From: a plasmid
Reading direction: 5' to 3' (one strand)
Length of the DNA stretch: 64,000 nt
Assembly (NCBI RefSeq): GCF_054482525.1
Contig: NZ_JBTHVG010000003.1
Shown one piece after another: positions 11,793 to 53,552 of the stretch. Every line of letters starts with the position of its first letter. The stretch's first letter is position 1. A program made the translations under genes and the position numbers. Below the pieces are notes generated by a model. The model was not told the origin of the DNA, made no database searches, and saw only the letters and a program-made list of their open reading frames with translations.

Positions 11793-12109
11793 ATGGGATT
11801 TGTTATGAAACCTCTGATATTTGTATCTCAGAGTTATCCCATCTTGAATTTAGTGCGTTTTTAAGTACGGATGGTGCTGCTACCATTGCTATAGCAAAAA
11901 ACGGAACTAATTTTACTGGACTTATGCAACTGAATAACGACTATTCTTTATTGTTTTATCATGATGGTAAAATAAATATGGAAGGTCTGATTAAACAAAT
12001 GGAATTAAAAGGTTATATGTATCAGGGAGCAATGGGCAATGATGATGTTGTTGCTGAGTTTCCCGGTATTCTTTTAATTTCACCAGAGAAGCTTTAATAT
12101 CAACCCTAT

Positions 12110-12150
12110 CGGGAAATCTTTCCCGTTGGGGAGGGTTTCCCCTTTTTTTT
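12110..12150 (+). terminator. Tandem hairpins with T8 tract
   Basis: CGGGA-AATCTT-TCCCG then GGGG-AGGGTTT-CCCC followed by TTTTTTTT, immediately before the GGAG RBS of the next gene. Confidence 0.6.
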
Positions 12151-12160
12151 GGAGAAACCC

Positions 12161-13288
12161 ATGACTTTAAATACTTCAATGCTTAACAAAGTATCTGCAA
12201 AACAAATCTCTGAGAATTTTGCAAAATCATATCCAGATTTACTGGAAGGTGCAGTTATAACAAAAATTGAAATAAGTGGCTGTCAAGGATCGCGTCGAAC
12301 CGATAAAATCGATTTGTCTTATGATGGAGATGATATTACGGATCAAAAAAGCGTATCTAAAAGCGAAGTACGCTGGATTGACATAAAAGCCCTTAGCTTC
12401 AAAAGTACGATTACCAGCAGAATATCAACTCTTTGCTCACGCTTGTGCATCCGCTATAGCAATATGTGGATTTTACCAGTATCCAGTATGGAAGAGTTTC
12501 TGGAAGGGGCCCAAGAGATTGAACGAGAGTTTCAGGCAGGTATTCAAAACGTTGTAGACAATTATGAGATGCATATTGAGGCTGAAAAAAATAGAAGCCC
12601 AAGAATGTCTTCTTTGATTGATCAGTTGAAATTAACTAAAGATGATTTCATAAAATCCTTTAGATTTAATATTGCTCACTTTATTCCTTTTACGCCTATT
12701 AGCGTTGAAGGTGATGAAACCCAGGACTACTATCAGGAACAATTGATAACAGATCTGGCAGAAGAAGCAATGAAGGTTTATGAAAAAATTAGCAAAAATA
12801 ACAATTTGCGCTCAAGTACTATTGACCGACTGAAGCAAATGCAAAATAAGATCATTAGCTTCATGTTTATACATAAAGAGGCGGCAGTACTTGCAGAAGC
12901 TATAAAACACATAATGAATAATTTACCTAAAGGTGCCATTTCTGAACCTCGCGACGTTGCGGTGTTACAGCAGTGGTTTTATTTCATGAGTGATGCTTCA
13001 ATGTTAAAGCGTATTATTTCAGGAGAGCAAAAGGTTACTGACTGGTTGGAATCTATTACCAGATCATTTAATCAAAGCTCACAAACAGAACCGAACGCGC
13101 TACAGAACACAGGTATTGAAGCTATTTTAGATTCAACAAATGTGTTCCAGGTTGAACCTGTCGTAGAGAACGATATAAATAACAGCACGTTTTCAAACAC
13201 TGATCCTGTAGCTGAACCTGAGAAATCAGTTTCGCAACAGGAAGACAATGTTGAAAATGGTTTTGATATCGAGCTCAAAGGCTGGTAA
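12161..13288 (+). CDS. Hypothetical protein (between the AAA+ and vWA genes)
   Basis: Start moved to the ATG at 12161 with a GGAG RBS (the ORF-track TTG start at 12149 lies inside the terminator T-tract); no recognised motif. Confidence 0.5.
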   Translation: MTLNTSMLNKVSAKQISENFAKSYPDLLEGAVITKIEISGCQGSRRTDKIDLSYDGDDITDQKSVSKSEVRWIDIKALSFKSTITSRISTLCSRLCIRYSNMWILPVSSMEEFLEGAQEIEREFQAGIQNVVDNYEMHIEAEKNRSPRMSSLIDQLKLTKDDFIKSFRFNIAHFIPFTPISVEGDETQDYYQEQLITDLAEEAMKVYEKISKNNNLRSSTIDRLKQMQNKIISFMFIHKEAAVLAEAIKHIMNNLPKGAISEPRDVAVLQQWFYFMSDASMLKRIISGEQKVTDWLESITRSFNQSSQTEPNALQNTGIEAILDSTNVFQVEPVVENDINNSTFSNTDPVAEPEKSVSQQEDNVENGFDIELKGW

Positions 13289-13308
13289 CTGTTTGCTTTA
13301 TTAAAAAC

Positions 13309-13350
13309 CCCAGATGGGTACTTCACCATCTGGGTGAGTACCCCTTTTTT
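13309..13350 (+). terminator. Terminator-like element with two mutually exclusive stems
   Basis: CCCAGATGG / CCATCTGGG stem overlaps an alternative GGGTAC / GTACCC stem, followed by T6. Confidence 0.55.
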
Positions 13351-13365
13351 ATAAAGAGGTATTCT

Positions 13366-15378
13366 ATGAAATTAGATCTTAAATCATCACCGCGCCATAT
13401 TAAGCGTTTACAGAATATAGCAAAAGTCATTAGCGGCTTAGGCGATGTAAGAGTTGTAATAGACGACAATACCAAAGGACCGTATTTTGATCCTGTAAAT
13501 AAAGTTTGTGTTTTACCAAACGGCGATTATAGCGATGATGACTTTGTCAGTCTGATTGAAGGTTTTACCTGTCATGAAGCTGGTCATGGTCGCTATACCG
13601 ACAGCGAGGTTTACAGTGACGCCTTTAATAGTGTTCTCAAGTCATCTGAAGGGTTTACACGCTTCGATGACGGAATGAATGCAGAGTTTGAGAGCCTCGC
13701 TGAGAAACGTAAAGCTTATAGCAGGGCAAAACGTCTTACCGGGCTTATAAATCTGTTCGATGATGTACAGATGGAAGAGAAGGTTGGTAACGATTATCCG
13801 GATGCAAAGCGGCGGCTTGCAGCCACTTACGCACTGATGGTTAAAGCCGGAAGGATGACTCCTGATATATCTTCTCGTCCGGAAAATCCTGTCCTATTTA
13901 TTGAGTGGTATCTGCTTAACTCATTGCGAGTAAAAGTCCTTCAGCAGGCAGGTCACAAAGAAACACTCGATCCGTTTTTTGACTATGCCCAAAAGATACT
14001 TTCTCCAGTAATTTCTGATGTTGAGGAAATTTTTCATGATGCTCTTGGTTGTGAAAATACTCAGGGCTGTGAATCCCTTGCTCGTAAGACCCTGGCTCTT
14101 TTAGAGAGACTGCGGGATGAGGCAAGGGAACAACAGCAGCAGACAGAGCAGGAGGAGCAGGAGGCATATGATGAATCCGAGACCGATACCGATACCGATA
14201 CCGAATCAGAAGATAAATCGCTTGAGTCGACTGATAGTCGTGAGGATGATTCTGAGGACGATAGTGAAGGTCAGGCAGATACTTCCGATAACTCTGATCT
14301 TGCTCAAGAGGGATGTTCTGAGCCTTCAGAACTTGCTGAAGATAACGAGGGAAATAATGAACCCACCGGTGGCAATCCCACAGGTGATAACATTATTGAA
14401 GACGATACTGATGCGATTAACCCTTCCGAGAGTGAATCAGATGAAGCCAGTTCGACTAACGTTGAAGATGAAAGTAACTTTTCATCGGCTCAATGGGAGA
14501 TACTGGCAGATTTGTTGGATGCCTTTCTTGGCAGTGATGAGGATAGCGAAGATTATCACGATGCTTTGGCTAAAGAGATTGAAGGTATTGCATCAAAAGT
14601 ATCCGATGACGTGAAAGCCGAATTCGGTGCTTCTGAATGGGATATCCCTGATCTCCTTATCGATTTGAATGTTTACAATGAGGCTTTGTCTCTGAGTCAT
14701 TCAATCGGTAGCGACTTGTCTGTTTTACAGCAGGTTAAAATGCGTGGCCGAAACAAAACTCATGAGCGTGGAATTACCTTCGATGGAAATCGATTAATTC
14801 TGTCACCAATGGGAGTTCGTGATGTCTTCAGAGCTCAAAGCGAATCTAAAAATAGAGGGCATGTTGGCCTCGTATTAGTTCGTGATATTTCAGCGTCAAT
14901 GGCTAATGATGAAAGATATATTCATGCCATTAAGTCAGATCTTGCTTTATCGATGGCCGCTGAAAGTTTGTCAAAAATGCATGTCTCCAATATAGTCTTT
15001 CCCTTCAAGGAAAGTGAATTTGAGATTATCAAAACGTTTGATCAAAGCGTTGAGGAATCTCTATCGAAATTCACTCTTGGATGTAAGGGTTATTATACCC
15101 CTACGGGATCGGCTTTAATGGCAGCTGTTGATCTGTTACTTGACAGCCAATTCGATAGGAAAATAATTTTTCTTATAACTGATGGTTATCCGAATAAATC
15201 GGAATTTACTATCGGCGAAGTTATGGAAAAGGCTAAGTGTAATGGAATAGAAATCGTTGGTGTTGGTATTAAGACTGATGAAATAATTGGTTTTGAAACG
15301 GACACTTTCGTAACAGTTGATGATACTTCTTTATTGTCTATTGAAGTCAGTAAGCTAGTTCATCAAATACTTTCTTAA
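13366..15378 (+). CDS. von Willebrand factor A protein with acidic linker, CobT-like
   Basis: C-terminal vWA with MIDAS motif (LVLVRDISASM, later ITDG); long D/E/S/T-rich low-complexity middle region; AAGAGG RBS; downstream of the CobS-like ATPase. Confidence 0.75.
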   Translation: MKLDLKSSPRHIKRLQNIAKVISGLGDVRVVIDDNTKGPYFDPVNKVCVLPNGDYSDDDFVSLIEGFTCHEAGHGRYTDSEVYSDAFNSVLKSSEGFTRFDDGMNAEFESLAEKRKAYSRAKRLTGLINLFDDVQMEEKVGNDYPDAKRRLAATYALMVKAGRMTPDISSRPENPVLFIEWYLLNSLRVKVLQQAGHKETLDPFFDYAQKILSPVISDVEEIFHDALGCENTQGCESLARKTLALLERLRDEAREQQQQTEQEEQEAYDESETDTDTDTESEDKSLESTDSREDDSEDDSEGQADTSDNSDLAQEGCSEPSELAEDNEGNNEPTGGNPTGDNIIEDDTDAINPSESESDEASSTNVEDESNFSSAQWEILADLLDAFLGSDEDSEDYHDALAKEIEGIASKVSDDVKAEFGASEWDIPDLLIDLNVYNEALSLSHSIGSDLSVLQQVKMRGRNKTHERGITFDGNRLILSPMGVRDVFRAQSESKNRGHVGLVLVRDISASMANDERYIHAIKSDLALSMAAESLSKMHVSNIVFPFKESEFEIIKTFDQSVEESLSKFTLGCKGYYTPTGSALMAAVDLLLDSQFDRKIIFLITDGYPNKSEFTIGEVMEKAKCNGIEIVGVGIKTDEIIGFETDTFVTVDDTSLLSIEVSKLVHQILS

Positions 15379-22958: not shown

Positions 22959-23157
22959 GCCTCGCTTACAAGCGTCTACTCCTCTTCTACCTATCCCACC
23001 TTACATCACCACTTAAAATCTATCTTTCTAATTCCATTATCCTTTTCGTAGCCTCTAATGCTCTGGTATGAACATACTCTTTAAACTCAAAAAAGTGCTA
23101 TTAACGAAAAAAAATCCCTAAAGAGATTTGTATACTGTTCTCAACCAAGGAGAGCTC

Positions 23158-23433
23158 ATGAATGAACTAAAATCCAAAAACGAGAACAGTACCAAAAGCA
23201 ACTTTCCCCCGGTTGATAATCAGTTTTGCTTTTACCATGTTGATTTCAGCATAGAACGACTACTTTCTACGGCCGAGGATCTCCAGCTTGAGTACATCTT
23301 CCAGAAACCTGGAAGTGAAGTAAGAAAGGATTTGGTTGAGCGATTCGAACGTGGAGAGCGCTTTGTTACAGCTTCACACTGTGACAATTTCTGTGAAATC
23401 CTTGGTTGTCAAGGCCATCAGGAAAATGCATAA
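23158..23433 (+). CDS. Small hypothetical protein
   Basis: AAGGAG RBS upstream of the ATG at 23158 (the ORF track starts at 23128). Confidence 0.4.
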   Translation: MNELKSKNENSTKSNFPPVDNQFCFYHVDFSIERLLSTAEDLQLEYIFQKPGSEVRKDLVERFERGERFVTASHCDNFCEILGCQGHQENA

Positions 23434-23477
23434 ACCCATAAACCTACATTTCCACTTTTAAGGATGTTCACTAAAGA

Positions 23478-24068
23478 ATGATTGGAGAAAGTATTTTTGA
23501 CTGGGTAATTTACGGAATATCCATTTTGATATTTGCCTCAGCACTAATTGAAGGAAAGACAACTCGCTACCCAGCACTTTTTTTCTATGGGAGTTTAATT
23601 TTAATGTTAATCCTGATAGTTGCTGGAGGCCTTAACTGGTGGTTCTACAGGTCAAAATATGGCGCAGTAATCGTTATCTTCACAGTGGTTTCTTTACTGA
23701 TGACTCGATTCCGCCTGGTCATATATAAATTAAGATTAAGAAAGTTAGTTTCAGAGATCAGATTTCGTATAAAAACGGGTTTTCGTATAATTCTTGTTTT
23801 GTCGGATAATGAGGATGAGCGTAATGTTCTGCTGTCTATGCTTAGCAACGTATTGCCAGAGCAAACGCTTATTCACACGCGTGATGCTCTCGGACCTCAT
23901 TCAGGGCCTATCCTAAAAGCTCTTGAGCTACATCATCAACAGGGAACAGGTTACATACTCGTCTGTGAACAACAAATCTCAGCGCGTACGTGGTTGAGTA
24001 TCGTAGAAAATGGGAAACCTGATACATCTATAGCTGTTAATTTTCATTCGATCCCAGAAATGGAGTGA
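23478..24068 (+). CDS. Membrane protein, unknown function
   Basis: Three predicted TM helices in the N-terminal half followed by a soluble domain. Confidence 0.5.
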   Translation: MIGESIFDWVIYGISILIFASALIEGKTTRYPALFFYGSLILMLILIVAGGLNWWFYRSKYGAVIVIFTVVSLLMTRFRLVIYKLRLRKLVSEIRFRIKTGFRIILVLSDNEDERNVLLSMLSNVLPEQTLIHTRDALGPHSGPILKALELHHQQGTGYILVCEQQISARTWLSIVENGKPDTSIAVNFHSIPEME

Positions 24069-24075
24069 TTTTTCA

Positions 24076-24333
24076 ATGAGTAGAACCGTTTCACAAAGTG
24101 TCACAGAAGATTGTCTTTTTGATACCCGCACACAAGTCAGATTACAACTAAGTCGAAGCGTTCATAAAACGCTGGCATCTGCTAAAGAAATTTTACAGGG
24201 AAGGGGGGTTGATTCGGTCTCTATTGAAGATCTTGTGCGAGCCTGTCTTGAAGAGAACCAGCCAATTGATCTCGCCTCACTTTACCTTGAAAATCTCTTA
24301 AAACAGAAAGGTACCAGCATTTGCGATTTTTAG
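24076..24333 (+). CDS. Small hypothetical protein
   Basis: 85-aa ORF starting 8 nt after the previous stop. Confidence 0.35.
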   Translation: MSRTVSQSVTEDCLFDTRTQVRLQLSRSVHKTLASAKEILQGRGVDSVSIEDLVRACLEENQPIDLASLYLENLLKQKGTSICDF

Positions 24334-24406
24334 TGTTTTCAAACCTATTAGATAAAATGCCGGTTGTGTTTATATAACATCAATAATTTCATGCAACAGG
24401 TAAAAC

Positions 24407-24943
24407 ATGAGTACTCAAAAGCAACTTTCCAGAACAACCGGCACTGAACGTATGTTTAAGGAAGAGCTGGCGTTATCCTTAATTTGTTGGGTTTTCACCA
24501 GTCCATTTACCAACTGGACCGATAAAGTCTTCAGTGGTATTGAAGTTCCGTCTGAAGGACCGTCAACATTACTGGGTGAGGCTGAAAAATTCTTTCGTTT
24601 TGTCGTTAATGAAGAAGGCTACGACGCAGGAAGGGCTGCTCTTGGTCTTGACCTATGTTGTTTTTCACTTCCGTCGTGTTTGTTCCCGGACGCTGCCCTG
24701 TCTGAGGAAGAGGTTATGAGTAAGTTAACCGGAGAAGTTATCCATGGGATTCTTCTTTCCTTACCTGAATTTATTGATATGCCAGAAGTGCTCGCTTACC
24801 AGGTCAGGGATGAAATTCTTGCTTTTAACACTCGCTGTGGAGACGGGATCTTTCATGGTTGGAACACGGCTTCAGAATTGTGGAAGTTTGAAATCTTTCC
24901 CCGCACCACCATCATGATGCAGCATACTTCGGCAATACATTAA
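24407..24943 (+). CDS. Hypothetical protein
   Basis: 178-aa ORF, no recognised motif. Confidence 0.4.
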   Translation: MSTQKQLSRTTGTERMFKEELALSLICWVFTSPFTNWTDKVFSGIEVPSEGPSTLLGEAEKFFRFVVNEEGYDAGRAALGLDLCCFSLPSCLFPDAALSEEEVMSKLTGEVIHGILLSLPEFIDMPEVLAYQVRDEILAFNTRCGDGIFHGWNTASELWKFEIFPRTTIMMQHTSAIH

Positions 24944-24959
24944 AATTAGGCGGGGCAGA

Positions 24960-25406
24960 ATGCATAAAAAACTTTTTCTTCTCGAATGGAAACCCTGTCA
25001 GAGCCGCGTATGGGCCGGTTGGATGGCCCTGTGGTTGACTATCAGTTTTCTGATGTTATCTGCCTTGCTTATGACAGATCATCTCCTGAACAAAGTCATC
25101 CTGCCGCCAACATGGTTGTTGATCTGGTTTTCGCCAATGCTGGGGTTTTTGATAAAAGTTCGCGTCGTCGAAACTCAACATTTCCTGGAGCATGACCTCT
25201 GTGTTGCAGGTTTCTCTTTTTACCGCTGGAAGAGGTTAGTTTCTCCCGGGCTTTGGTCAGTTGACTGTATAAATGGTCGTTTTCGCCTCAATCGGATCAC
25301 CCAGGTGGGTAAGACTATCCACTATCCATGGCGTCTCCATTATCATCCTTTGTTCATGAGCCCTATCGAACATAAATCGCATGCTGTGAAAGCTGTTTCA
25401 AAATGA
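24960..25406 (+). CDS. Hypothetical membrane protein
   Basis: 148 aa with hydrophobic N-terminal segments; ATG 17 nt after the previous stop. Confidence 0.4.
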   Translation: MHKKLFLLEWKPCQSRVWAGWMALWLTISFLMLSALLMTDHLLNKVILPPTWLLIWFSPMLGFLIKVRVVETQHFLEHDLCVAGFSFYRWKRLVSPGLWSVDCINGRFRLNRITQVGKTIHYPWRLHYHPLFMSPIEHKSHAVKAVSK

Positions 25407-25478: not shown

Positions 25479-26459
25479 ATGAGCCTGGAGAAACGTATGA
25501 GTTATGACGATTTGCCCTATTTTCGTGACCAGATTCTGGAACGTATCGACTCGCTTAAGTGTTTTCTTTCGAACACCCCCCCGCTGATGGCAAACCTGAT
25601 GACTGTCTCCACCGTATCTCGAACAGAAGAGCGACTGAAGCAGGTTAAACCCATCAGGGTTAGTGTTAAAGACGATGCTTCGGTTGAGGAAATTATTCAG
25701 GCACTTACTGACATCTGTGTGGATGACATAGAGTCATTAAGTCATGATTCCACCAAAGTGACCACTAAATACCCGGGTCTTATCATTGTCCCAGAAAGAG
25801 CAGATCTTCTCGAAAGCTTGATCACATCTATAAATGAAGCAAAAAATGATTTTGCTGCGGCAATGAGGCGTATCGATAATAAAAAGAATGTCCGTTTTGA
25901 TAAAGTGCACAAGAAGCTCCCGGGCCTTGTCGCTATGCACTCAACAAGAAATGTCCTTTTCATCAAGTCCCAGCTTAAAAAAGTTACTTTTTCATGGCGG
26001 CTAAACCGAAACCAGGAAGTTAAAACAGCAGAGCAACTTGTGAGTTTGTTGGAGCGCAGGAGAGCCTCAGAAGTAAAAAATGTAGCAACTACCAATTTGA
26101 ATGTCGTGTCTAATATCGATAAGGCTTTACACCGTCTTGAATTTCACCCACTGAAGCAGGGCGAATCTTATCGCCTTTGTCGAACTAACTCTTTCCCTGT
26201 TCCGATTGCTCACATTTTTGCATTTAGGCCTGAAGGCCAGGAACGAAACGGGAATAAATATGCTGAGACTGATTATTCAGTAGTAAAAGCATCCTTGCCC
26301 ATTTTCGCAGCAGGCAACATACCTCAATTAAAAACGCTCTCTGACTGGGCTCCTGAAAACAGCCAGGGCCCGTCCAACCAACGGAAGCTGAGCCTGAAAT
26401 ATACAGAACTCGTGCCGGGGGCTGAGCTGGGCATTTTCATTGTCAGCCCCGAAAATTAA
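25479..26459 (+). CDS. Tus-like (replication terminus-binding protein-like)
   Basis: Block FDKVHKKLPGLVAMHSTRNVLFI...FSWRLNR resembles the Tus block [23 protein letters not shown]...FGWANKH as I recall it; size about 320 aa. The real start may be the ATG at 25497 (GGAG RBS). Confidence 0.4.
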   Translation: MSLEKRMSYDDLPYFRDQILERIDSLKCFLSNTPPLMANLMTVSTVSRTEERLKQVKPIRVSVKDDASVEEIIQALTDICVDDIESLSHDSTKVTTKYPGLIIVPERADLLESLITSINEAKNDFAAAMRRIDNKKNVRFDKVHKKLPGLVAMHSTRNVLFIKSQLKKVTFSWRLNRNQEVKTAEQLVSLLERRRASEVKNVATTNLNVVSNIDKALHRLEFHPLKQGESYRLCRTNSFPVPIAHIFAFRPEGQERNGNKYAETDYSVVKASLPIFAAGNIPQLKTLSDWAPENSQGPSNQRKLSLKYTELVPGAELGIFIVSPEN

Positions 26460-26468
26460 GGAACAACA

Positions 26469-27374
26469 ATGCAATGGATTTCCACAGCCAGCCAGAAAAT
26501 CGATGAGCGTCTCTATCGTGTCTGCGTCTGGGTAAAAAAATATCACGCTGATGCGATTAACCGCGTTGTGCTTACCGTTGATCTAAGTAAAGCCCGACAT
26601 GACCCTGACGAGGACCAGGTAAGAGCAGAGCTGCTGTGCGGCCATTATTTTTTGCTTCGTAAGGAAAACGCTTCGAACTCTGCGCCTGACGATCAAAAGT
26701 TTGCTTTCCTGCCTGACGGGCGCAATCTGTGTTGGCAGACCGCAACCCCGGTGCTTCAGCATCTCCTGCTCAATAAAAACGTTCCTGAGTCGCTGAGGTT
26801 GCTTACGGACTACATACATATGCGTCTGGCCAGGCTGACAATGGTACCAATGTCCGGAACCATCATGAACGAGGCTCTGCTGGACAGCATCAGCTGGGTT
26901 AAGGTGGATTTGACCTACTTCTGGCAGTACGAACAGCTCAGCTCTCATCTGGGACCCATCCAGATAACCCACAAGGCACTAGTACGCTTCGGGCATCTGG
27001 CAAAGAATGATGAAAACTCCAGTGCCATAAGAATCCTGCGTCAGCGTCTGTCTTCAGAATTCTTACAAGAATTTCAGATGGCTGAGGATGAGCTAAAGCG
27101 CAAACAGTCGTTGATGGGCACCATGGACGTGAAAATGCTGTTTCATGCTCATTACCCCAGCCAGAAGATGCTGGTGGCTCGATATAAAAATGGTTGGGTA
27201 ATGGTGGATTGTTTTCTGTTTCATCATACCAAACCTAAGAAAAAAGCAAAAAACAAAACTACTGTGGCTAAGCCTCAACTTAAAGAGACTAAAAGAGAAG
27301 GGAGTGAAAATGGAACTGGGCATTATGGTGTGCATCGTGTTGTTACTCTCCGTGGCGGCGGCGTGGATCAGTAA
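26469..27374 (+). CDS. Hypothetical protein
   Basis: 301-aa ORF with a basic, lysine-rich C-terminal tail. Confidence 0.4.
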   Translation: MQWISTASQKIDERLYRVCVWVKKYHADAINRVVLTVDLSKARHDPDEDQVRAELLCGHYFLLRKENASNSAPDDQKFAFLPDGRNLCWQTATPVLQHLLLNKNVPESLRLLTDYIHMRLARLTMVPMSGTIMNEALLDSISWVKVDLTYFWQYEQLSSHLGPIQITHKALVRFGHLAKNDENSSAIRILRQRLSSEFLQEFQMAEDELKRKQSLMGTMDVKMLFHAHYPSQKMLVARYKNGWVMVDCFLFHHTKPKKKAKNKTTVAKPQLKETKREGSENGTGHYGVHRVVTLRGGGVDQ

Positions 27375-27654
27375 TAAGACAGTTGATTTGCTCGAAAGAT
27401 TCTATTTCAAGCGTCCGCTGAGCATGGAGTACGCGGCATGGCTACGTGTAATGTGTGCAGGCTTGTTATTGGTTTTTATTCAGGTTGCTCCACAATTTAC
27501 ACTTCTGTATACCCTTAAACTTGTCACGCTTATTAATCTTGGAATCCAGACAATGAAATTAAATGGCGTGTACAAATATAAAAGAACGGGAATTTTGCCT
27601 CCGGGAGGGGCACTCTCTAATCTCACCAGACTTAACCCGTTCAAGAAAAAATAA
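27310..27654 (+). CDS. Small hypothetical membrane protein
   Basis: AAGGGAG RBS 5 nt before the ATG at 27310; two predicted TM helices; overlaps the 3' end of the previous ORF in another frame. Confidence 0.3.
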   Translation: MELGIMVCIVLLLSVAAAWISNKTVDLLERFYFKRPLSMEYAAWLRVMCAGLLLVFIQVAPQFTLLYTLKLVTLINLGIQTMKLNGVYKYKRTGILPPGGALSNLTRLNPFKKK

Positions 27655-27675: not shown

Positions 27676-28860
27676 CTATTCATCAAAGGCATTTCGCATA
27701 AGCTTGATCATTGCTTTTTTACCAGCTTCAATATTACGAATGTAGCGCATAACCATTTCTTCATTCGACCAGTTCCCCATTTCCATAATCTGTGGTAGCG
27801 AGTAACCTTCAATATTTAGCTGTATCGCTCCGCCTACACGAACGCTGTGCCCTGTCCAGTAACGAGTTTTAGTCTCATTTGGATAAAGCTCATTCCACAT
27901 CTCTTTAAATGCTCGTAAAAGGGAATTTTTGCTGAGCATACCGGCATCGTCCACAGTGTCTTCTTCATCTTCATCGTTCAGAAGACTTTGCTTAGCACGA
28001 TAGGGTAGGTTATGCCTTTTAAGAAGTTCAGATAGCTCATTCCCCTTACTCCGAAGCTTCCAGCCGGGTGGCATATAGCCTGTATCATGGAAATTTACGG
28101 CCTGGAAAAGGAATTCATCCGGATGACTGTGCTGATCCATTTTCACGAGGTTCATCAATCTCAAGAGGCAGTTAGTTAACTGACGTGTCAGCCGGTAGGT
28201 AAGAAGTGTACTAATGTTCGTTTTTGTACGGTATACCGTCAGGTTAAATTCACCGGTCATACTATCCAGAGACAGATCTTTCAGACGTATACGTCGAATT
28301 TCGGATGAACGGAGCAGTGTTTCAAAGCCTGTCCAGATCAGGCACAGGTCACGAAGTTTACGAACTGAGTTTGTAGTACTGCGTAACTTTATCAGAGCCT
28401 TGAGATCGCCAATAAGAAAGGGAGTTGCCTGTTTAGTCGTCTTTCGCTTCCGGGCTTCCGATTGTTTTAAGGCTTCCAGCATGTACCATGCTTCAGACGT
28501 AATAATCCCGGGCAGGTTAAGCCCTTTTTTATGGATACTATTTAAGGCCTGAAGACAGCTGTTTATGCTGCTTCGTGACAATTTGCCTTCAAGATGCCCC
28601 ATAAACGCAAGCAGAGCGTCCTCAGACACGGGGAGCGAACTTACTGGCCAGTCTGTATGCAACCGGGCATTCGCCAGATACCATTCGTTCCATACTCGTA
28701 GCCAGTGCAGATAGGTTTTAGCAGTGTTGTATCTCAGATGGGAAAAGTAACGGATCAAGCGTGAAAGCTGTTTATCATGGTTGCCGAACGTTTCCAGCTG
28801 CTGATGCAATTCGCTTTCCGAAAACTGTCTGATCACTGATTGATTCTTCATCCTGCTCAC
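27676..28860 (-). CDS. Tyrosine site-specific recombinase/integrase
   Basis: C-terminal catalytic region HSVRVGGA...MRYIRN (H-x-x-R and catalytic Tyr); start may be the ATG at 28851 rather than the GTG at 28860. Confidence 0.8.
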   Translation of the reverse strand: MSRMKNQSVIRQFSESELHQQLETFGNHDKQLSRLIRYFSHLRYNTAKTYLHWLRVWNEWYLANARLHTDWPVSSLPVSEDALLAFMGHLEGKLSRSSINSCLQALNSIHKKGLNLPGIITSEAWYMLEALKQSEARKRKTTKQATPFLIGDLKALIKLRSTTNSVRKLRDLCLIWTGFETLLRSSEIRRIRLKDLSLDSMTGEFNLTVYRTKTNISTLLTYRLTRQLTNCLLRLMNLVKMDQHSHPDEFLFQAVNFHDTGYMPPGWKLRSKGNELSELLKRHNLPYRAKQSLLNDEDEEDTVDDAGMLSKNSLLRAFKEMWNELYPNETKTRYWTGHSVRVGGAIQLNIEGYSLPQIMEMGNWSNEEMVMRYIRNIEAGKKAMIKLMRNAFDE

Positions 28861-29021: not shown

Positions 29022-29234
29022 ATGTCTGACACAAAGCAGTCTTATTTAATGAAATTCCGTAAGTGTAGTTCGTTCGAAACGCTCGAAAAAGTATTTGAAA
29101 GGTTATGTGAAAAAAACTCGGGTGTCGCCTCTCTTGAAATTTCTGGTGCTTATGATCATCGTAAAGCCGAACTGACAATGAAAAAGTTATATGACAAAGT
29201 TCCTGCGAGTGTGTGGACCTTTGTTCGCGAGTAA
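29022..29234 (+). CDS. Small hypothetical protein
   Basis: GAAGG RBS before the ATG at 29022; about 70 aa. Confidence 0.3.
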   Translation: MSDTKQSYLMKFRKCSSFETLEKVFERLCEKNSGVASLEISGAYDHRKAELTMKKLYDKVPASVWTFVRE

Positions 29235-29594
29235 TTATTAATATTGGCACAACAAAAAGACTGTGCCTAGATTTGAAAATAGTTTATGCCCCTTTCGGGG
29301 CTAAAGGCATTGTAATAGCCTGTCTTTTAAAGTTGTTTATTAAGTTCGGAGAAAAACTTTAATCATAAGCCAAGCCCACTGCTAAATACATCCGATATTC
29401 TCCTTCATTTTATTAGAAGTGATAAAAGTTACTTTACCTAAACTTCTCTCTCAATATTTGTAAGGCTCTCATTTGATTTTTGTCAAACATTAATCTGGAA
29501 GACGGAAAAATCATTTCTTTTAATACGTTTTACAGAAATCCTCCTCCGTTATTTCGGATATAGTTTGAATCATTATCAAAAACGGGGTGCAGCC

Positions 29595-30677
29595 ATGCGT
29601 AAGAGTTATACATTTGGTATTCCATTTGGACTCCAGCGAGAATCAGGACTCTTTTTAGATATTACAGAGGTCAGCCGGGGTATTGACTGTAACTGCATCT
29701 GCCCCGCTTGCAAAACTGATCTGTTAGCAAAGCAGGGGGAGGTCAAGCTTTGGCATTTCTCACACAGTACAGCTGTAGCCGGTGACTGTGATGGTCTGAT
29801 GGAAGCCATCCGGGGAAAGATTATTGAAGTCATCAACGAGCACCAGGTTCTTGGTTTCCCAAATCTTCTCGCTGGCGACGATGGTGGGCCGGTTTCACTG
29901 AATGAGGTTAGTGGAAGCGGCAGTATGTTCGGAGGCACAGCTGATCTGTTCGTAAAGGTTAATGATTTATGTGTGGCCGTCTTTCTGGACAGGGATCGCA
30001 GCATTTCAGAGAAGTTAACCTTTGACCATCTTCATCCTTCCGAAAGAGTTGCCGCATTGCGTATCGATCTTCCTGATATTGAATATGAAATCAGTCAGGT
30101 GCAGCTCGGGCGACGTAAAACAACATACAGTGAGTGCATTGAAAGCCTGATCATTGATGAGACCAGTTCCCGGGAATGGCTATATCATCCATTAATGCAT
30201 GAACTTGAATCTGAACCTCTTCAGGAGTATCGGGGACGGGAGCCTTCAGAGGAAGGGCCTCTTCTTCAGCGCCTTGCTGACTGTAAGATGAAATTGCCTG
30301 ATATCCTTCCGGGCAGTCATAACGCGCTAGTCAGGTTACAGCAGGATACGATTGTATGTCTGTGTCGGTTAACGGTTCGGGCTTATGACATCGCTCAGAC
30401 CGATGAATTTCCTTTGTTCCTTCGCTATTTCAGGTTGCACTGCCTGGAAAACAGCGAACATGTCAGTTACGAAAGACTGATCTGCTGGCAGGAAATGATT
30501 TCAAAAACCCAGGAAGGCCAGTCCTTGACACAAAACGAACTTGAATATCTTCATGAGATTGTCCGCATCGCCTTTTACAATCACCGGCTTAACAATGTCA
30601 GTATTTCAGATGTTAAAAACCATGACACTGGAAAGAAGAGCGGCAGGGTAGAGTCACAAAATTATTCACTTTTATAA
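29595..30677 (+). CDS. CoiA-like zinc-finger protein, solitary
   Basis: N-terminal motif CNCICPACKTDLLAKQGEVKLWHFSH matches the C-x-C-P-x-C-K...HF-x-H signature also seen in the protein at 60984..61970; start moved to the ATG at 29595. Confidence 0.5.
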   Translation: MRKSYTFGIPFGLQRESGLFLDITEVSRGIDCNCICPACKTDLLAKQGEVKLWHFSHSTAVAGDCDGLMEAIRGKIIEVINEHQVLGFPNLLAGDDGGPVSLNEVSGSGSMFGGTADLFVKVNDLCVAVFLDRDRSISEKLTFDHLHPSERVAALRIDLPDIEYEISQVQLGRRKTTYSECIESLIIDETSSREWLYHPLMHELESEPLQEYRGREPSEEGPLLQRLADCKMKLPDILPGSHNALVRLQQDTIVCLCRLTVRAYDIAQTDEFPLFLRYFRLHCLENSEHVSYERLICWQEMISKTQEGQSLTQNELEYLHEIVRIAFYNHRLNNVSISDVKNHDTGKKSGRVESQNYSLL

Positions 30678-53078: not shown

Positions 53079-53552
53079 CGCGGCCGTTGGAATTGCACCG
53101 GCCGGATACGAATTTAACCGACCCCGTGGCGGGAAGGCTATCAGAGTTGCATGTCCTCATCCCTCAAGCCCCCTGCCAGGCCCCAACGTGCTGTCAGGCT
53201 TCGCCTGATTCCCGATCTGCGCCGATACTTCAGCCGATAACTTTTTGTTTTCTTTTTATTTTCTTCCCATTTCCTCAAAAATCGCGGGCGGCGTGGACAG
53301 GGCACCATTGCCGCATGTGGGGTCTTAATAAGGGCAGGGTGGTCAGTTTTGCTCGATGCCAGGGTTAGGCCCTCCCCTTCATGGGATGAGGACATGCAAG
53401 TAAGCTAACTATCTGAAATGACGAAGGTTCATTTGGTGAATGTCGCTTCATATTAATGTTGTGTCACTTATGATCGTATGTAGCTGGTTGCAAAGAGGAG
53501 CGATGAGACAATAAAGTTGTATCGCTAACAAGATTTATGCTGCCACATAGTA

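What the first reader, a model, noticed from the sequence alone, without database searches (positions are those of the whole stretch)
25479..26459. Tus-like protein in the accessory block
Local similarity to the Tus replication-terminus-binding protein suggests an element-encoded fork-arrest factor; Ter sites would be expected on the replicon. The match is weak and from memory.
Basis: inference. Interest (0 to 1): 0.35.

Follow-up and report, generated by a model that had tools for sequence, protein, structure and literature searches.

The report
Known Tus homologue on IncHI2 plasmid
The gene is a genuine but very diverged relative of the bacterial replication-terminator protein Tus; it is a conserved core gene of IncHI plasmids that has been annotated as Tus-like since 2000, and the DNA site it should bind could not be found.

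Summary
The ORF at 25479-26459 (+) is real and belongs to the Tus family. Pfam PF05472 matches at E=4.6e-19 (69 bits, cutoff 22). A confident AlphaFold model (pLDDT 92.9) matches only E. coli Tus-Ter crystal structures, over its full length (TM 0.74-0.78). The residues that hold the flipped C6 base (F140, H144, G149) and E49 are kept; E47 and R198 are not.

The window is IncHI2 plasmid backbone (R478-like). [quoted passage not shown] The IncHI1 orthologue, R27 R0186, has carried that label since 2000, and published work reports no loss of plasmid stability in E. coli from single-ORF deletions that included it.

The gene is backbone, not accessory: it sits in a co-directional gene string conserved down to 25-27% Tus identity.

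The expected Ter sites were not confirmed. The window has none. R478 has one E. coli-like site, outside the window, lacking G6, statistically marginal and absent from IncHI1. R27 has none. No vicinal or paired conserved site was found.

In passing I found a strongly over-represented backbone palindrome, AAAGTNACTTT (47 and 42 copies against about 0.3 expected). One copy lies inside tus. I found no published description of it.

The parts
25479..26459 (+). tus homologue (Tus/Ter family, PF05472); likely true start at 25497 (320 aa, = RefSeq WP_000119427.1)
   Evidence: ORF; Pfam E=4.6e-19; AF2 pLDDT 92.9 and Foldseek hits to Tus only, TM 0.74-0.78; RefSeq annotation; GGAG before 25497
25980..25990 (.). 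copy of the dispersed backbone palindrome AAAGTTACTTT embedded in tus codons K-K-V-T-F; conserved at synonymous sites in 7 orthologues
   Evidence: third-position identity 0.86 against 0.33 gene-wide
26469..27374 (+). 301-aa ORF of unknown function that always follows tus directly (10-nt gap here; 4-nt overlap in distant relatives); candidate functional partner
   Evidence: synteny; no hit in Pfam, NCBIfam, PHROGs, PADLOC or PDB
27304..27654 (+). 116-aa ORF, conserved third member of the tus / ~300-aa / ~110-aa trio
23128..25406 (+). co-directional upstream ORFs of the same conserved gene string (101, 196, 85, 178 and 148 aa); in diverged relatives the last upstream gene overlaps the tus start codon
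   Evidence: R27 homologues R0187-R0189 are co-expressed with R0186
27676..28860 (-). tyrosine recombinase (Phage_integrase domain), convergent with the tus string; conserved neighbour in all lineages
   Evidence: Pfam PF00589 E=1.8e-13; synteny
29022..29234 (+). hha (Hha/YmoA family), conserved neighbour
   Evidence: RefSeq annotation mapped from L001; PF05321 in related loci

Best explanation
The gene encodes a plasmid-borne, highly diverged member of the Tus family. It probably clamps double-stranded DNA in the cleft between its two domains, as E. coli Tus does. By inference it acts as a polar contrahelicase: when a replicative helicase unwinds its binding site from one side, a cytosine flips into a conserved pocket (F140/H144/G149) and locks the protein on the DNA. 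Its binding site is not an E. coli-type Ter and remains unidentified. The gene is a core component of the IncHI-type plasmid backbone (relaxase type MOBH, mating-pair formation type MPF_F). It is expressed constitutively from within a long operon whose head is switched on with conjugation. Its likely role is to limit where plasmid replication forks can travel, for example preventing over-replication or multimerisation, or keeping forks out of a sensitive region. Shown here: family membership, fold, pocket residues, backbone conservation. Shown by others: expression of the orthologue. Inferred: DNA binding, polarity and biological role.
For: Pfam PF05472 at 69 bits against a 22-bit cutoff. The full-length Tus fold matches only Tus among PDB chains. 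The motif RF(D/E)xVHxxLPGL aligns without ambiguity, keeping F140, H144, G149 and also E49, K89 and R232. The roles of F140, H144, G149, E49, R198 and E47 are taken from PMC10331603 Table 1. The gene is intact in more than 1400 plasmid records and keeps its position in lineages down to 25-27% identity, which implies long-term purifying selection. The R27 orthologue is transcribed at 25 and 37 C, at 2562 and 3057 units. Plasmid-borne tus is a recognised phenomenon and the proposed source of chromosomal tus (PMC6549158). Failure to find ter with the E. coli consensus also occurred for the diverged Pseudoalteromonas chromid tus (PMC7858055), so a missing E. coli-type Ter does not argue against function.
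Against: No cognate site was found. There is nothing in the window, nothing above chance on R27, no vicinal site, no conserved non-coding 13-mer near tus, and no shared inverted pair. R198 and E47, which contribute to arrest in E. coli, are not conserved in the alignment. NCBIfam Tus equivalog models score far below their cutoffs (53 against 323; 21 against 178). Single-ORF deletions in R27 that included R0186 were reported to cause no stability loss in E. coli MG1655, although that host has its own Tus and only stability was scored. Frameshifted alleles exist (P0004, P0035).
Confidence: 0.6

Rival explanations
1. The protein keeps the Tus fold but has been repurposed as a site-specific DNA-binding protein that is not a replication terminator. 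It could be a transcriptional roadblock or regulator of the conjugation-linked operon it sits in, or the binder of the dispersed backbone palindrome AAAGTNACTTT.
For: tus is embedded in an operon with no promoter or vicinal Ter of its own. The operon rises 2.5-4.7-fold in conjugation-derepressed drR27. A copy of the palindrome lies inside tus in three separate lineages, at three different codon positions. With about one copy per 4-5 kb, that has a chance probability of roughly 0.01, though the test is post hoc. The palindrome contains GTAACT, identical to positions 13-18 of TerB. R198 and E47 are lost.
Against: Tus is a monomer on an asymmetric site, whereas the motif and its flanks are fully symmetric, which suggests a dimeric binder. 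About 45 randomly oriented barriers per plasmid would be harmful if they arrested forks, and the central base shows no polarity switch around R478. Lineage L023 has tus in the same synteny but no motif copies in 21 kb and no substitute word. The C6 pocket is conserved, which is hard to explain without a lock mechanism.
Confidence: 0.22
2. The plasmid Tus works with the single E. coli-like site found on IncHI2 (R478 188,981-189,003, GATATTTAAGTTGTAACTAATAT, outside the window). That site would be a backstop for the clockwise fork just beyond the skew-defined terminus and next to the oriT region.
For: It is the best PWM hit on R478: 17.5, and 19.5 in the window's own lineage, with a perfect 13-bp AAGTTGTAACTAA core. 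It lies 22-30 kb past the cumulative GC-skew maximum (159-167 kb) and is oriented to block forks moving toward higher coordinates. [quoted passage not shown]
Against: The score equals the maximum of 30 shuffles (17.4), and the site sits in an AT-rich 590-bp spacer where such matches are easier. Position 6 is T, so there is no C6 to lock, which is the situation the literature describes for sites unable to form a locked complex (PMC8707476). The site is absent from the orthologous IncHI1 spacer (best 1.8) and from all of R27, although the two Tus proteins are 59% identical. A protein only 15-18% identical to E. coli Tus is unlikely to keep the E. coli core specificity. If the site is functional at all, it would more likely bind the host Tus.
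Confidence: 0.1
3. The gene is a dispensable relic with no current function.
For: Single-ORF deletions in R27 that included R0186 were reported to cause no stability defect. Frameshifted alleles are present in databases.
Against: Position, length, fold and pocket residues are conserved across lineages that have diverged to 25-27% identity. The gene is intact in more than 1400 records and is actively transcribed.
Confidence: 0.05

Closest known systems
R27 ORF R0186 (IncHI1) and the annotated tus of R478 / pSTM6-275 (IncHI2)
   Same: [quoted passage not shown]
   Different: Nothing of substance; the window's gene is this gene. No publication that I could read reports DNA binding, a defined Ter site or fork arrest for it.
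E. coli chromosomal Tus-Ter fork trap (PDB 1ECR, 2I06, 4XR0-3)
   Same: Same Pfam family and same two-domain fold over the full length. F140, H144, G149 (C6 pocket), E49, K89 and R232 are conserved.
   Different: Only 15-18% identity. It fails the NCBIfam equivalog cutoffs. R198 and E47 are not conserved. There is no TerB-like site upstream of the gene, which lies inside an operon. There are no E. coli-type Ter sites in a conserved arrangement. The gene sits mid-replichore, not at the terminus, on R478.
Ter sites of plasmids R6K and R1/R100 that use the host Tus (own knowledge of the classical literature; R6K exception noted in PMC6312765)
   Same: A plasmid replicon that uses Tus-type polar barriers to control where its forks stop. 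In R1, loss of termination is reported to promote multimerisation and rolling-circle replication (own knowledge).
   Different: Those plasmids carry E. coli-type Ter sequences and no tus gene. IncHI plasmids carry their own diverged tus and lack convincing E. coli-type Ter sites.
tus on Pseudoalteromonas chromids and other 'mobile' tus genes (PMC6549158, PMC7858055)
   Same: Diverged PF05472 proteins on plasmid-derived replicons; a search with the E. coli ter consensus failed there too.
   Different: There tus lies next to the origin and is linked to unidirectional replication. Here it is about 56 kb from the nearest rep gene, and GC skew looks bidirectional.

Membership tests
Tus / Ter-binding protein family (Pfam PF05472) | Profile match above the curated gathering threshold | tested here: met
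   69 bits against 22, E=4.6e-19, covering profile positions 10-208 of 296; all close homologues also carry PF05472
Tus / Ter-binding protein family (Pfam PF05472) | Two-domain Tus fold with an inter-domain beta-sheet DNA cleft, over the full length | tested here: met
   AF2 with a 50-sequence alignment gives pLDDT 92.9 and pTM 0.88. Foldseek against PDB gives only Tus chains as significant hits, E=6e-19, TM 0.74/0.78, 326 columns. Caveats: this is a predicted model, and E. coli Tus was in the alignment.
Tus / Ter-binding protein family (Pfam PF05472) | Cytosine (C6) lock pocket residues F140, H144, G149 | tested here: met
   All three are identical in an unambiguous block, RFDKVHKKLPGL against [12 protein letters not shown]; roles from PMC10331603 Table 1
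Tus / Ter-binding protein family (Pfam PF05472) | Residues that slow the approaching fork or stabilise the trap (E49, R198, E47) | tested here: inconclusive
   E49 is kept (E51). E47 becomes T49 and R198 becomes V199, but the R198 region is poorly aligned.
Chromosomal Tus equivalog (NCBIfam NF002810 / TIGR02648) | Score above the equivalog cutoff, i.e. same function assumed | tested here: not met
   53.1 against 323 and 20.9 against 178.3
[quoted passage not shown] | Cognate asymmetric Ter sites with a G-C pair at position 6 on the same replicon | tested here: inconclusive
   For E. coli-type sites the feature is not met. The window has none at 3 mismatches or fewer. R478 has one marginal site with T6. 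R27 has none above chance. A diverged, unrecognisable Ter cannot be excluded.
[quoted passage not shown] | Vicinal Ter just upstream of tus (TerB/Ter1-type autoregulation) | tested here: not met
   The TerB control scores 32.1, 11 bp upstream of E. coli tus. IncHI-type loci score 11.2 or less within 4-10 kb either side. The tus start overlaps the upstream gene in relatives. No conserved non-coding 13-mer was found.
[quoted passage not shown] | Oppositely oriented sites flanking the terminus | tested here: not met
   No non-palindromic 13-mer is shared in inverted orientation by R27 and R478 apart from Tn10 ends, oriT repeats and one local inverted repeat
[quoted passage not shown] | Polar arrest of DnaB-driven forks | not testable with these tools
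   Needs 2D gels, marker-frequency analysis or in vitro helicase assays

The most novel reading that the evidence does not exclude
The IncHI Tus does not use classical Ter sites at all. Its target would be the dispersed backbone palindrome AAAGTNACTTT, which has about 45 positionally conserved copies per plasmid, shares the GTAACT core of Ter, and has one copy kept inside tus in three lineages. That would make it a plasmid-wide Tus-bound network, for pausing, compaction, or helicase control during conjugation, rather than a two-sided fork trap. Even if Tus is not the binder, the motif is an apparently undescribed global cis-element of IncHI resistance plasmids.
Probability: 0.12. Interest if true: 0.7.

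Novelty: already known. Interest (0 to 1): 0.2.

Why it matters
As stated, the finding adds nothing new. The gene has been annotated as Tus-like on IncHI plasmids since the R27 sequence of 2000, and RefSeq names it in more than a thousand records.

The follow-up does expose an open question. IncHI plasmids are major carriers of multidrug, colistin (mcr) and heavy-metal resistance, and they have kept their own Tus through deep divergence. Yet they have no recognisable Ter site, and the one published deletion test reported no stability phenotype. Finding the site and role of this protein would bear on the proposal that chromosomal Tus was domesticated from plasmids (PMC6549158). It might also reveal a plasmid-maintenance or transfer function that could be targeted.

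The over-represented backbone palindrome found in passing is probably of more interest than the tus annotation itself.

Tried and rejected
1. Single-sequence AlphaFold gave pLDDT 31 and was unusable. It was replaced by a run on a 50-sequence alignment.

2. An exact or 3-mismatch search for the E. coli Ter consensus in the window found nothing. The two GTTGTAAC cores are at chance level and lie in non-Ter contexts.

3. My by-eye reading of Ter-like words just upstream of tus in IncHI2 and IncHI1 was rejected. They need indels, are in the opposite orientation to TerB, and score as noise with the PWM.

4. The PWM of E. coli TerA-J (TerB verified, the rest from memory) was run on whole R478 and R27 and on 9 tus loci. 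It gave only the marginal IncHI2 site.

5. A footprint search for 18-mers and 13-mers conserved across diverged tus loci returned only coding constraints, a terminator and the palindrome.

6. A search for shared inverted 13-mers, as a fork-trap signature, returned only the palindrome, Tn10 ends, oriT repeats and one local inverted repeat.

7. I considered that the A-run in CTTAAAAAAGTT inside tus might be a -1 frameshift heptamer. I rejected this because A-AAA-AAG is not in the required frame relative to the tus reading frame (read).

8. Pfam, NCBIfam, PHROGs, PADLOC and PDB sequence searches on the neighbouring ORFs gave no informative hits.

9. Literature searches for the motif and for an IncHI global operator found nothing relevant. 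The R27 genome paper (PMC105367) is not held.

Full report
OBSERVATION. A 326-aa ORF occupies exactly 25479-26459 on the + strand. [quoted passage not shown] The match covers residues 20-217 on profile positions 10-208 of 296. NCBIfam's two Tus equivalog models also match, but far below their cutoffs (53 against 323; 21 against 178). Direct phmmer against solved E. coli Tus is only marginal (E=0.08).

FOLD. A single-sequence AlphaFold run failed (pLDDT 31). An exhaustive phmmer search of 1.84 billion representative proteins found only 63 relatives at E<=1e-3. I aligned 50 sequences: the query, E. coli Tus and 48 family members (A1). The resulting model has pLDDT 92.9 and pTM 0.88. Foldseek against the PDB returns only the four E. 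coli Tus-Ter entries as significant hits (E about 6e-19, TM 0.74/0.78), aligned over all 326 columns at 15-16% identity. The C-terminal domain that Pfam missed is therefore also Tus-like. The caveats are that this is a predicted model and that E. coli Tus was in the alignment.

KEY RESIDUES. In alignment A1 the block RFDKVHKKLPGL aligns without ambiguity to E. coli [12 protein letters not shown]. F140, H144 and G149 are identical, and E49, K89 and R232 are also kept. A 2023 review lists F140, H144 and G149 as 'holding C6 in place', E49 and R198 as slowing the approaching fork, and E47 as stabilising the mousetrap (PMC10331603 Table 1). E47 (T49 here) and R198 (V199 here, in a poorly aligned region) are not conserved. 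The lock pocket is thus retained, but some accessory arrest residues are not.

WHAT REPLICON THIS IS. The 4.9 kb around the gene is 100% identical to many 150-290 kb conjugative plasmids of Salmonella, E. coli, Enterobacter and others. There are 1418 matching records, typed IncHI2A / MOBH / MPF_F. The window is colinear with R478 from about 30.4 to 87 kb: the end of Tra2, a string of hypothetical genes, tus, a tyrosine recombinase, hha, and the tellurite-resistance operons. [quoted passage not shown]

PRIOR KNOWLEDGE. [quoted passage not shown] The IncHI1 orthologue (59% identity) is R27 ORF R0186 at 162,022-162,981. A supplementary table reproducing the R27 annotation lists it as similar to the Klebsiella terminus-binding protein (PMC4853401 Table S2). 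Plasmid-borne PF05472 genes as a class, and the idea that chromosomal tus was domesticated from them, are published (PMC6549158). The finding is therefore already known.

BACKBONE, NOT ACCESSORY. The same gene order recurs in many lineages: about 90, 196, 85, 175 and 147 aa ORFs, then (about 204 aa), tus, an ORF of about 260-300 aa, one of about 110 aa, a tyrosine recombinase on the opposite strand, and hha. It is found in IncHI1, a Photorhabdus contig (65% identity), a Lelliottia-type contig (46%), and unnamed contigs at 52% and 37%. It is also found in Klebsiella IncFIB/IncHI1B plasmids (25%) and in two further lineages at 27-28%. In the diverged relatives the tus start codon overlaps the upstream gene. 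IncHI2 has lost that roughly 204-aa gene, which leaves a 72-90 bp gap. tus is therefore an ancient core gene embedded in an operon, with no promoter region of its own. The likely true start is 25497: a GGAG lies 7 nt upstream, and orthologues align from M7.

EXPRESSION AND GENETICS FROM THE LITERATURE. In the R27 transcriptome, R0186 reads 2562 units at 25 C and 3057 at 37 C, similar to its neighbours R0184-R0189. In the conjugation-derepressed drR27 at 25 C it rises 2.55-fold and its neighbours rise 2.5-4.7-fold. Genes at the head of the same string (R0205-R0210) rise 19-53-fold (PMC7366339 Tables S3 and S4). In the R27 deletion study, R0186 was removed on its own ('Del 186', 162.022-162.981). 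The authors state that no single-ORF deletion reproduced the instability of the larger deletion (data not shown). That host, MG1655, has its own Tus, and only stability was scored.

TER SITES. I verified TerB (AATAAGTATGTTGTAACTAAAGT), which ends 11 bp before the E. coli tus ATG. I then built a PWM from TerA-J; TerB is verified and the other nine are from memory.

- Window: no match to AGNATGTTGTAACTAA at 3 mismatches or fewer. The two GTTGTAAC cores are at chance level. The best PWM score is 10.1.
- Whole R478 (fetched in six pieces): the best hit is 188,981(+), GATATTTAAGTTGTAACTAATAT, scoring 17.5. Thirty Markov shuffles gave mean 13.2, sd 2.4 and maximum 17.4.
- That site has a perfect 13-bp core. 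However, it has T rather than G at position 6, and it lies in an AT-rich 590-bp spacer about 2 kb from the mobI/oriT region. It is outside the window.
- The site is retained in the window's own IncHI2 lineage (score 19.5) but absent from the orthologous IncHI1 spacer (best 1.8).
- Whole R27: the best score is 15.3, inside the accessory tcuR gene, within the shuffle range (maximum 20.8).
- Control: the same PWM gives 32.1 for TerB, and 11.2 or less in every IncHI-type tus locus within 4-10 kb either side.
- Unbiased searches found no conserved non-coding 13-mer or 18-mer near tus other than a terminator and the palindrome described below. They also found no word shared in inverted orientation by R27 and R478 that could be a fork-trap pair.

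A diverged Ter that I cannot recognise remains possible. The same failure was reported for the diverged tus of Pseudoalteromonas chromids (PMC7858055).

REPLICON GEOMETRY. On R478 the cumulative GC skew has its minimum at the RepB-family rep gene (position about 1) and its maximum at about 159-167 kb. On R27 the detrended minimum is at 55.9 kb, next to a rep gene, and the maximum is at about 150 kb. tus is mid-replichore on R478 (56 kb) and about 12 kb from the skew maximum on R27. The IncHI2 Ter-like site lies 22-30 kb beyond the R478 maximum and is oriented to block forks moving toward higher coordinates. That would suit a backstop, but the statistical and comparative evidence above is weak.

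MOST LIKELY MECHANISM. The protein is a Tus-family DNA clamp with an intact C6 pocket, so polar helicase arrest at a plasmid-specific site is the best-supported reading (confidence about 0.6). Rivals are:

- a repurposed site-specific DNA binder, including binding of the palindrome (about 0.22);
- use of the lone E. coli-like IncHI2 site (about 0.1);
- a relic with no function (about 0.05), which is contradicted by the deep conservation.

NOTICED IN PASSING: A DISPERSED PALINDROME. The most conserved DNA word in the 10 kb around tus lies inside tus: AAA AAA GTT ACT TTT, codons K-K-V-T-F, window 25977-25991. Third-position identity across 7 orthologues is 0.86 there, against 0.33 gene-wide.

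- Abundance: the same word, AAAGT(A/T)ACTTT, occurs 47 times on R478 and 42 times on R27, against about 0.1-0.4 expected. Allowing any central base, it occurs 11 times in the window against 0.08 expected, and 0 of 100 shuffles reach that count.
- Definition: almost every AAGTWACTT carries the extra A and T flanks. One-mismatch variants are also enriched (30 against about 6). The flanks are symmetric.
- Location: 51% of copies lie outside ORFs of 90 aa or more, against 16% of the replicon. Three of the four motif-free stretches over 12 kb on R478 coincide with accessory DNA and the fourth covers part of the tellurite-resistance region.
- Conservation: copies sit at orthologous positions in R27 and R478 inside trhU, trhI, a VWA gene and tus, and in several spacers.
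- Spread: it is present in the Klebsiella lineage and in L022, each with a copy inside tus at a different codon position. It is absent from L023, which has tus in the same synteny.

The motif contains GTAACT, which equals TerB positions 13-18. However, its perfect symmetry, its roughly 45 copies with no polarity switch, and the L023 exception all argue for a dimeric global binder rather than Tus. By my own recollection this resembles the KorB operators of plasmid RK2. I found no description of the motif in the searchable literature.

VERDICT. The novelty class is 'already known', and interest in the finding itself is low. The unresolved target of this Tus and the backbone palindrome are the points worth carrying forward.

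Noticed in passing
window 823, 7346, 8025, 14471, 18216, 21787, 25980, 29425, 43894, 48487, 57618 (11-mers); whole R478 and R27: A strongly over-represented, backbone-specific palindrome, AAAGTNACTTT (extended form gaAAAGTWACTTTtc). It has 47 copies on R478, 42 on R27 and 11 in the window, against 0.1-0.4 expected. It occurs in both coding and non-coding DNA, is positionally conserved between IncHI1 and IncHI2, and three of its four long motif-free stretches on R478 are accessory DNA. I found no description of it in the searchable literature. It is probably the site of a dimeric global DNA-binding protein.
   Followed up: partly
window 25977-25991 (inside tus): One copy of the palindrome is embedded in tus codons K-K-V-T-F and is conserved at synonymous sites in 7 orthologues (37-65% aa identity). 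The Klebsiella-type and L022-type tus genes also contain a copy, at different codon positions. This may mean tus, or the genes downstream of it, are regulated through the motif.
   Followed up: partly
window 26469-27374 and 27304-27654: A 301-aa ORF and a 116-aa ORF follow tus directly in every lineage examined (a 10-nt gap here, a 4-nt overlap in distant relatives). Neither hits Pfam, NCBIfam, PHROGs, PADLOC or the PDB. They are candidate functional partners of the plasmid Tus.
   Followed up: partly
R478 (NC_005211) 188,981-189,003, locus L006 38981-39003; outside the window: The only E. coli-type Ter-like sequence on IncHI2 is GATATTTAAGTTGTAACTAATAT. It has a perfect 13-bp core and T at position 6. 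It lies about 2 kb from mobI/oriT and 22-30 kb past the GC-skew maximum. It is absent in IncHI1 and might bind host Tus.
   Followed up: yes
proteins P0004 (214 aa), P0035 (181 aa), P0037 (152 aa): Frameshifted or truncated alleles of the IncHI2 tus exist in public assemblies; the P0004 cluster has 249 member sequences. They could be true pseudogenes in some plasmids or sequencing errors.
   Followed up: no
window 53149-53162 (+) and 53384-53397 (-): A local inverted repeat, GCATGTCCTCATCC, with arms about 235 bp apart. It is also present on R478 (about 88.2-88.5 kb) and R27 (about 152.2-152.4 kb). Its function is unknown.
   Followed up: no
window 13308-13334 (also about 9647 and about 12102 by offset from R478 40050 and 42505): Short GC-rich hairpin-like spacers between the hypothetical genes upstream of tus are 92-100% identical between R478 and R27, although the flanking DNA has diverged. 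An example is CCCCAGATGGGTACTTCACCATCTGGGTGAGTACCC. They may be RNA structures, intra-operon terminators or processing sites.
   Followed up: no
R478 12,064-14,997 and R27 25,649-26,727 (outside the window): Arrays of a 21-bp repeat, ATTTAACCCCCTTAATCGCCA, lie upstream of parA/parB and are conserved between IncHI1 and IncHI2. They are presumably the partition centromere or incompatibility repeats.
   Followed up: no
R478 190,750-190,835 and R27 108,430-108,580 (outside the window): Clustered direct and inverted repeats AAAAGTGACCCTATG lie in the spacer next to mobI, presumably relaxosome binding sites at oriT. Two copies of the AAAGTWACTTT palindrome flank this region in both plasmids.
   Followed up: no
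whole R478 and R27: The cumulative GC skew has its minimum at a rep gene on both plasmids (R478 about position 1; R27 55.9 kb) and its maximum at about 159-167 kb (R478) and about 150 kb (R27). This is consistent with bidirectional theta replication. tus is not at the skew-defined terminus on R478.
   Followed up: partly
window 29565-30677: A 370-aa ORF with a CoiA_N (competence protein CoiA N-terminal) domain, E=6.3e-08, is a conserved neighbour downstream of hha in several IncHI-type lineages.
   Followed up: no
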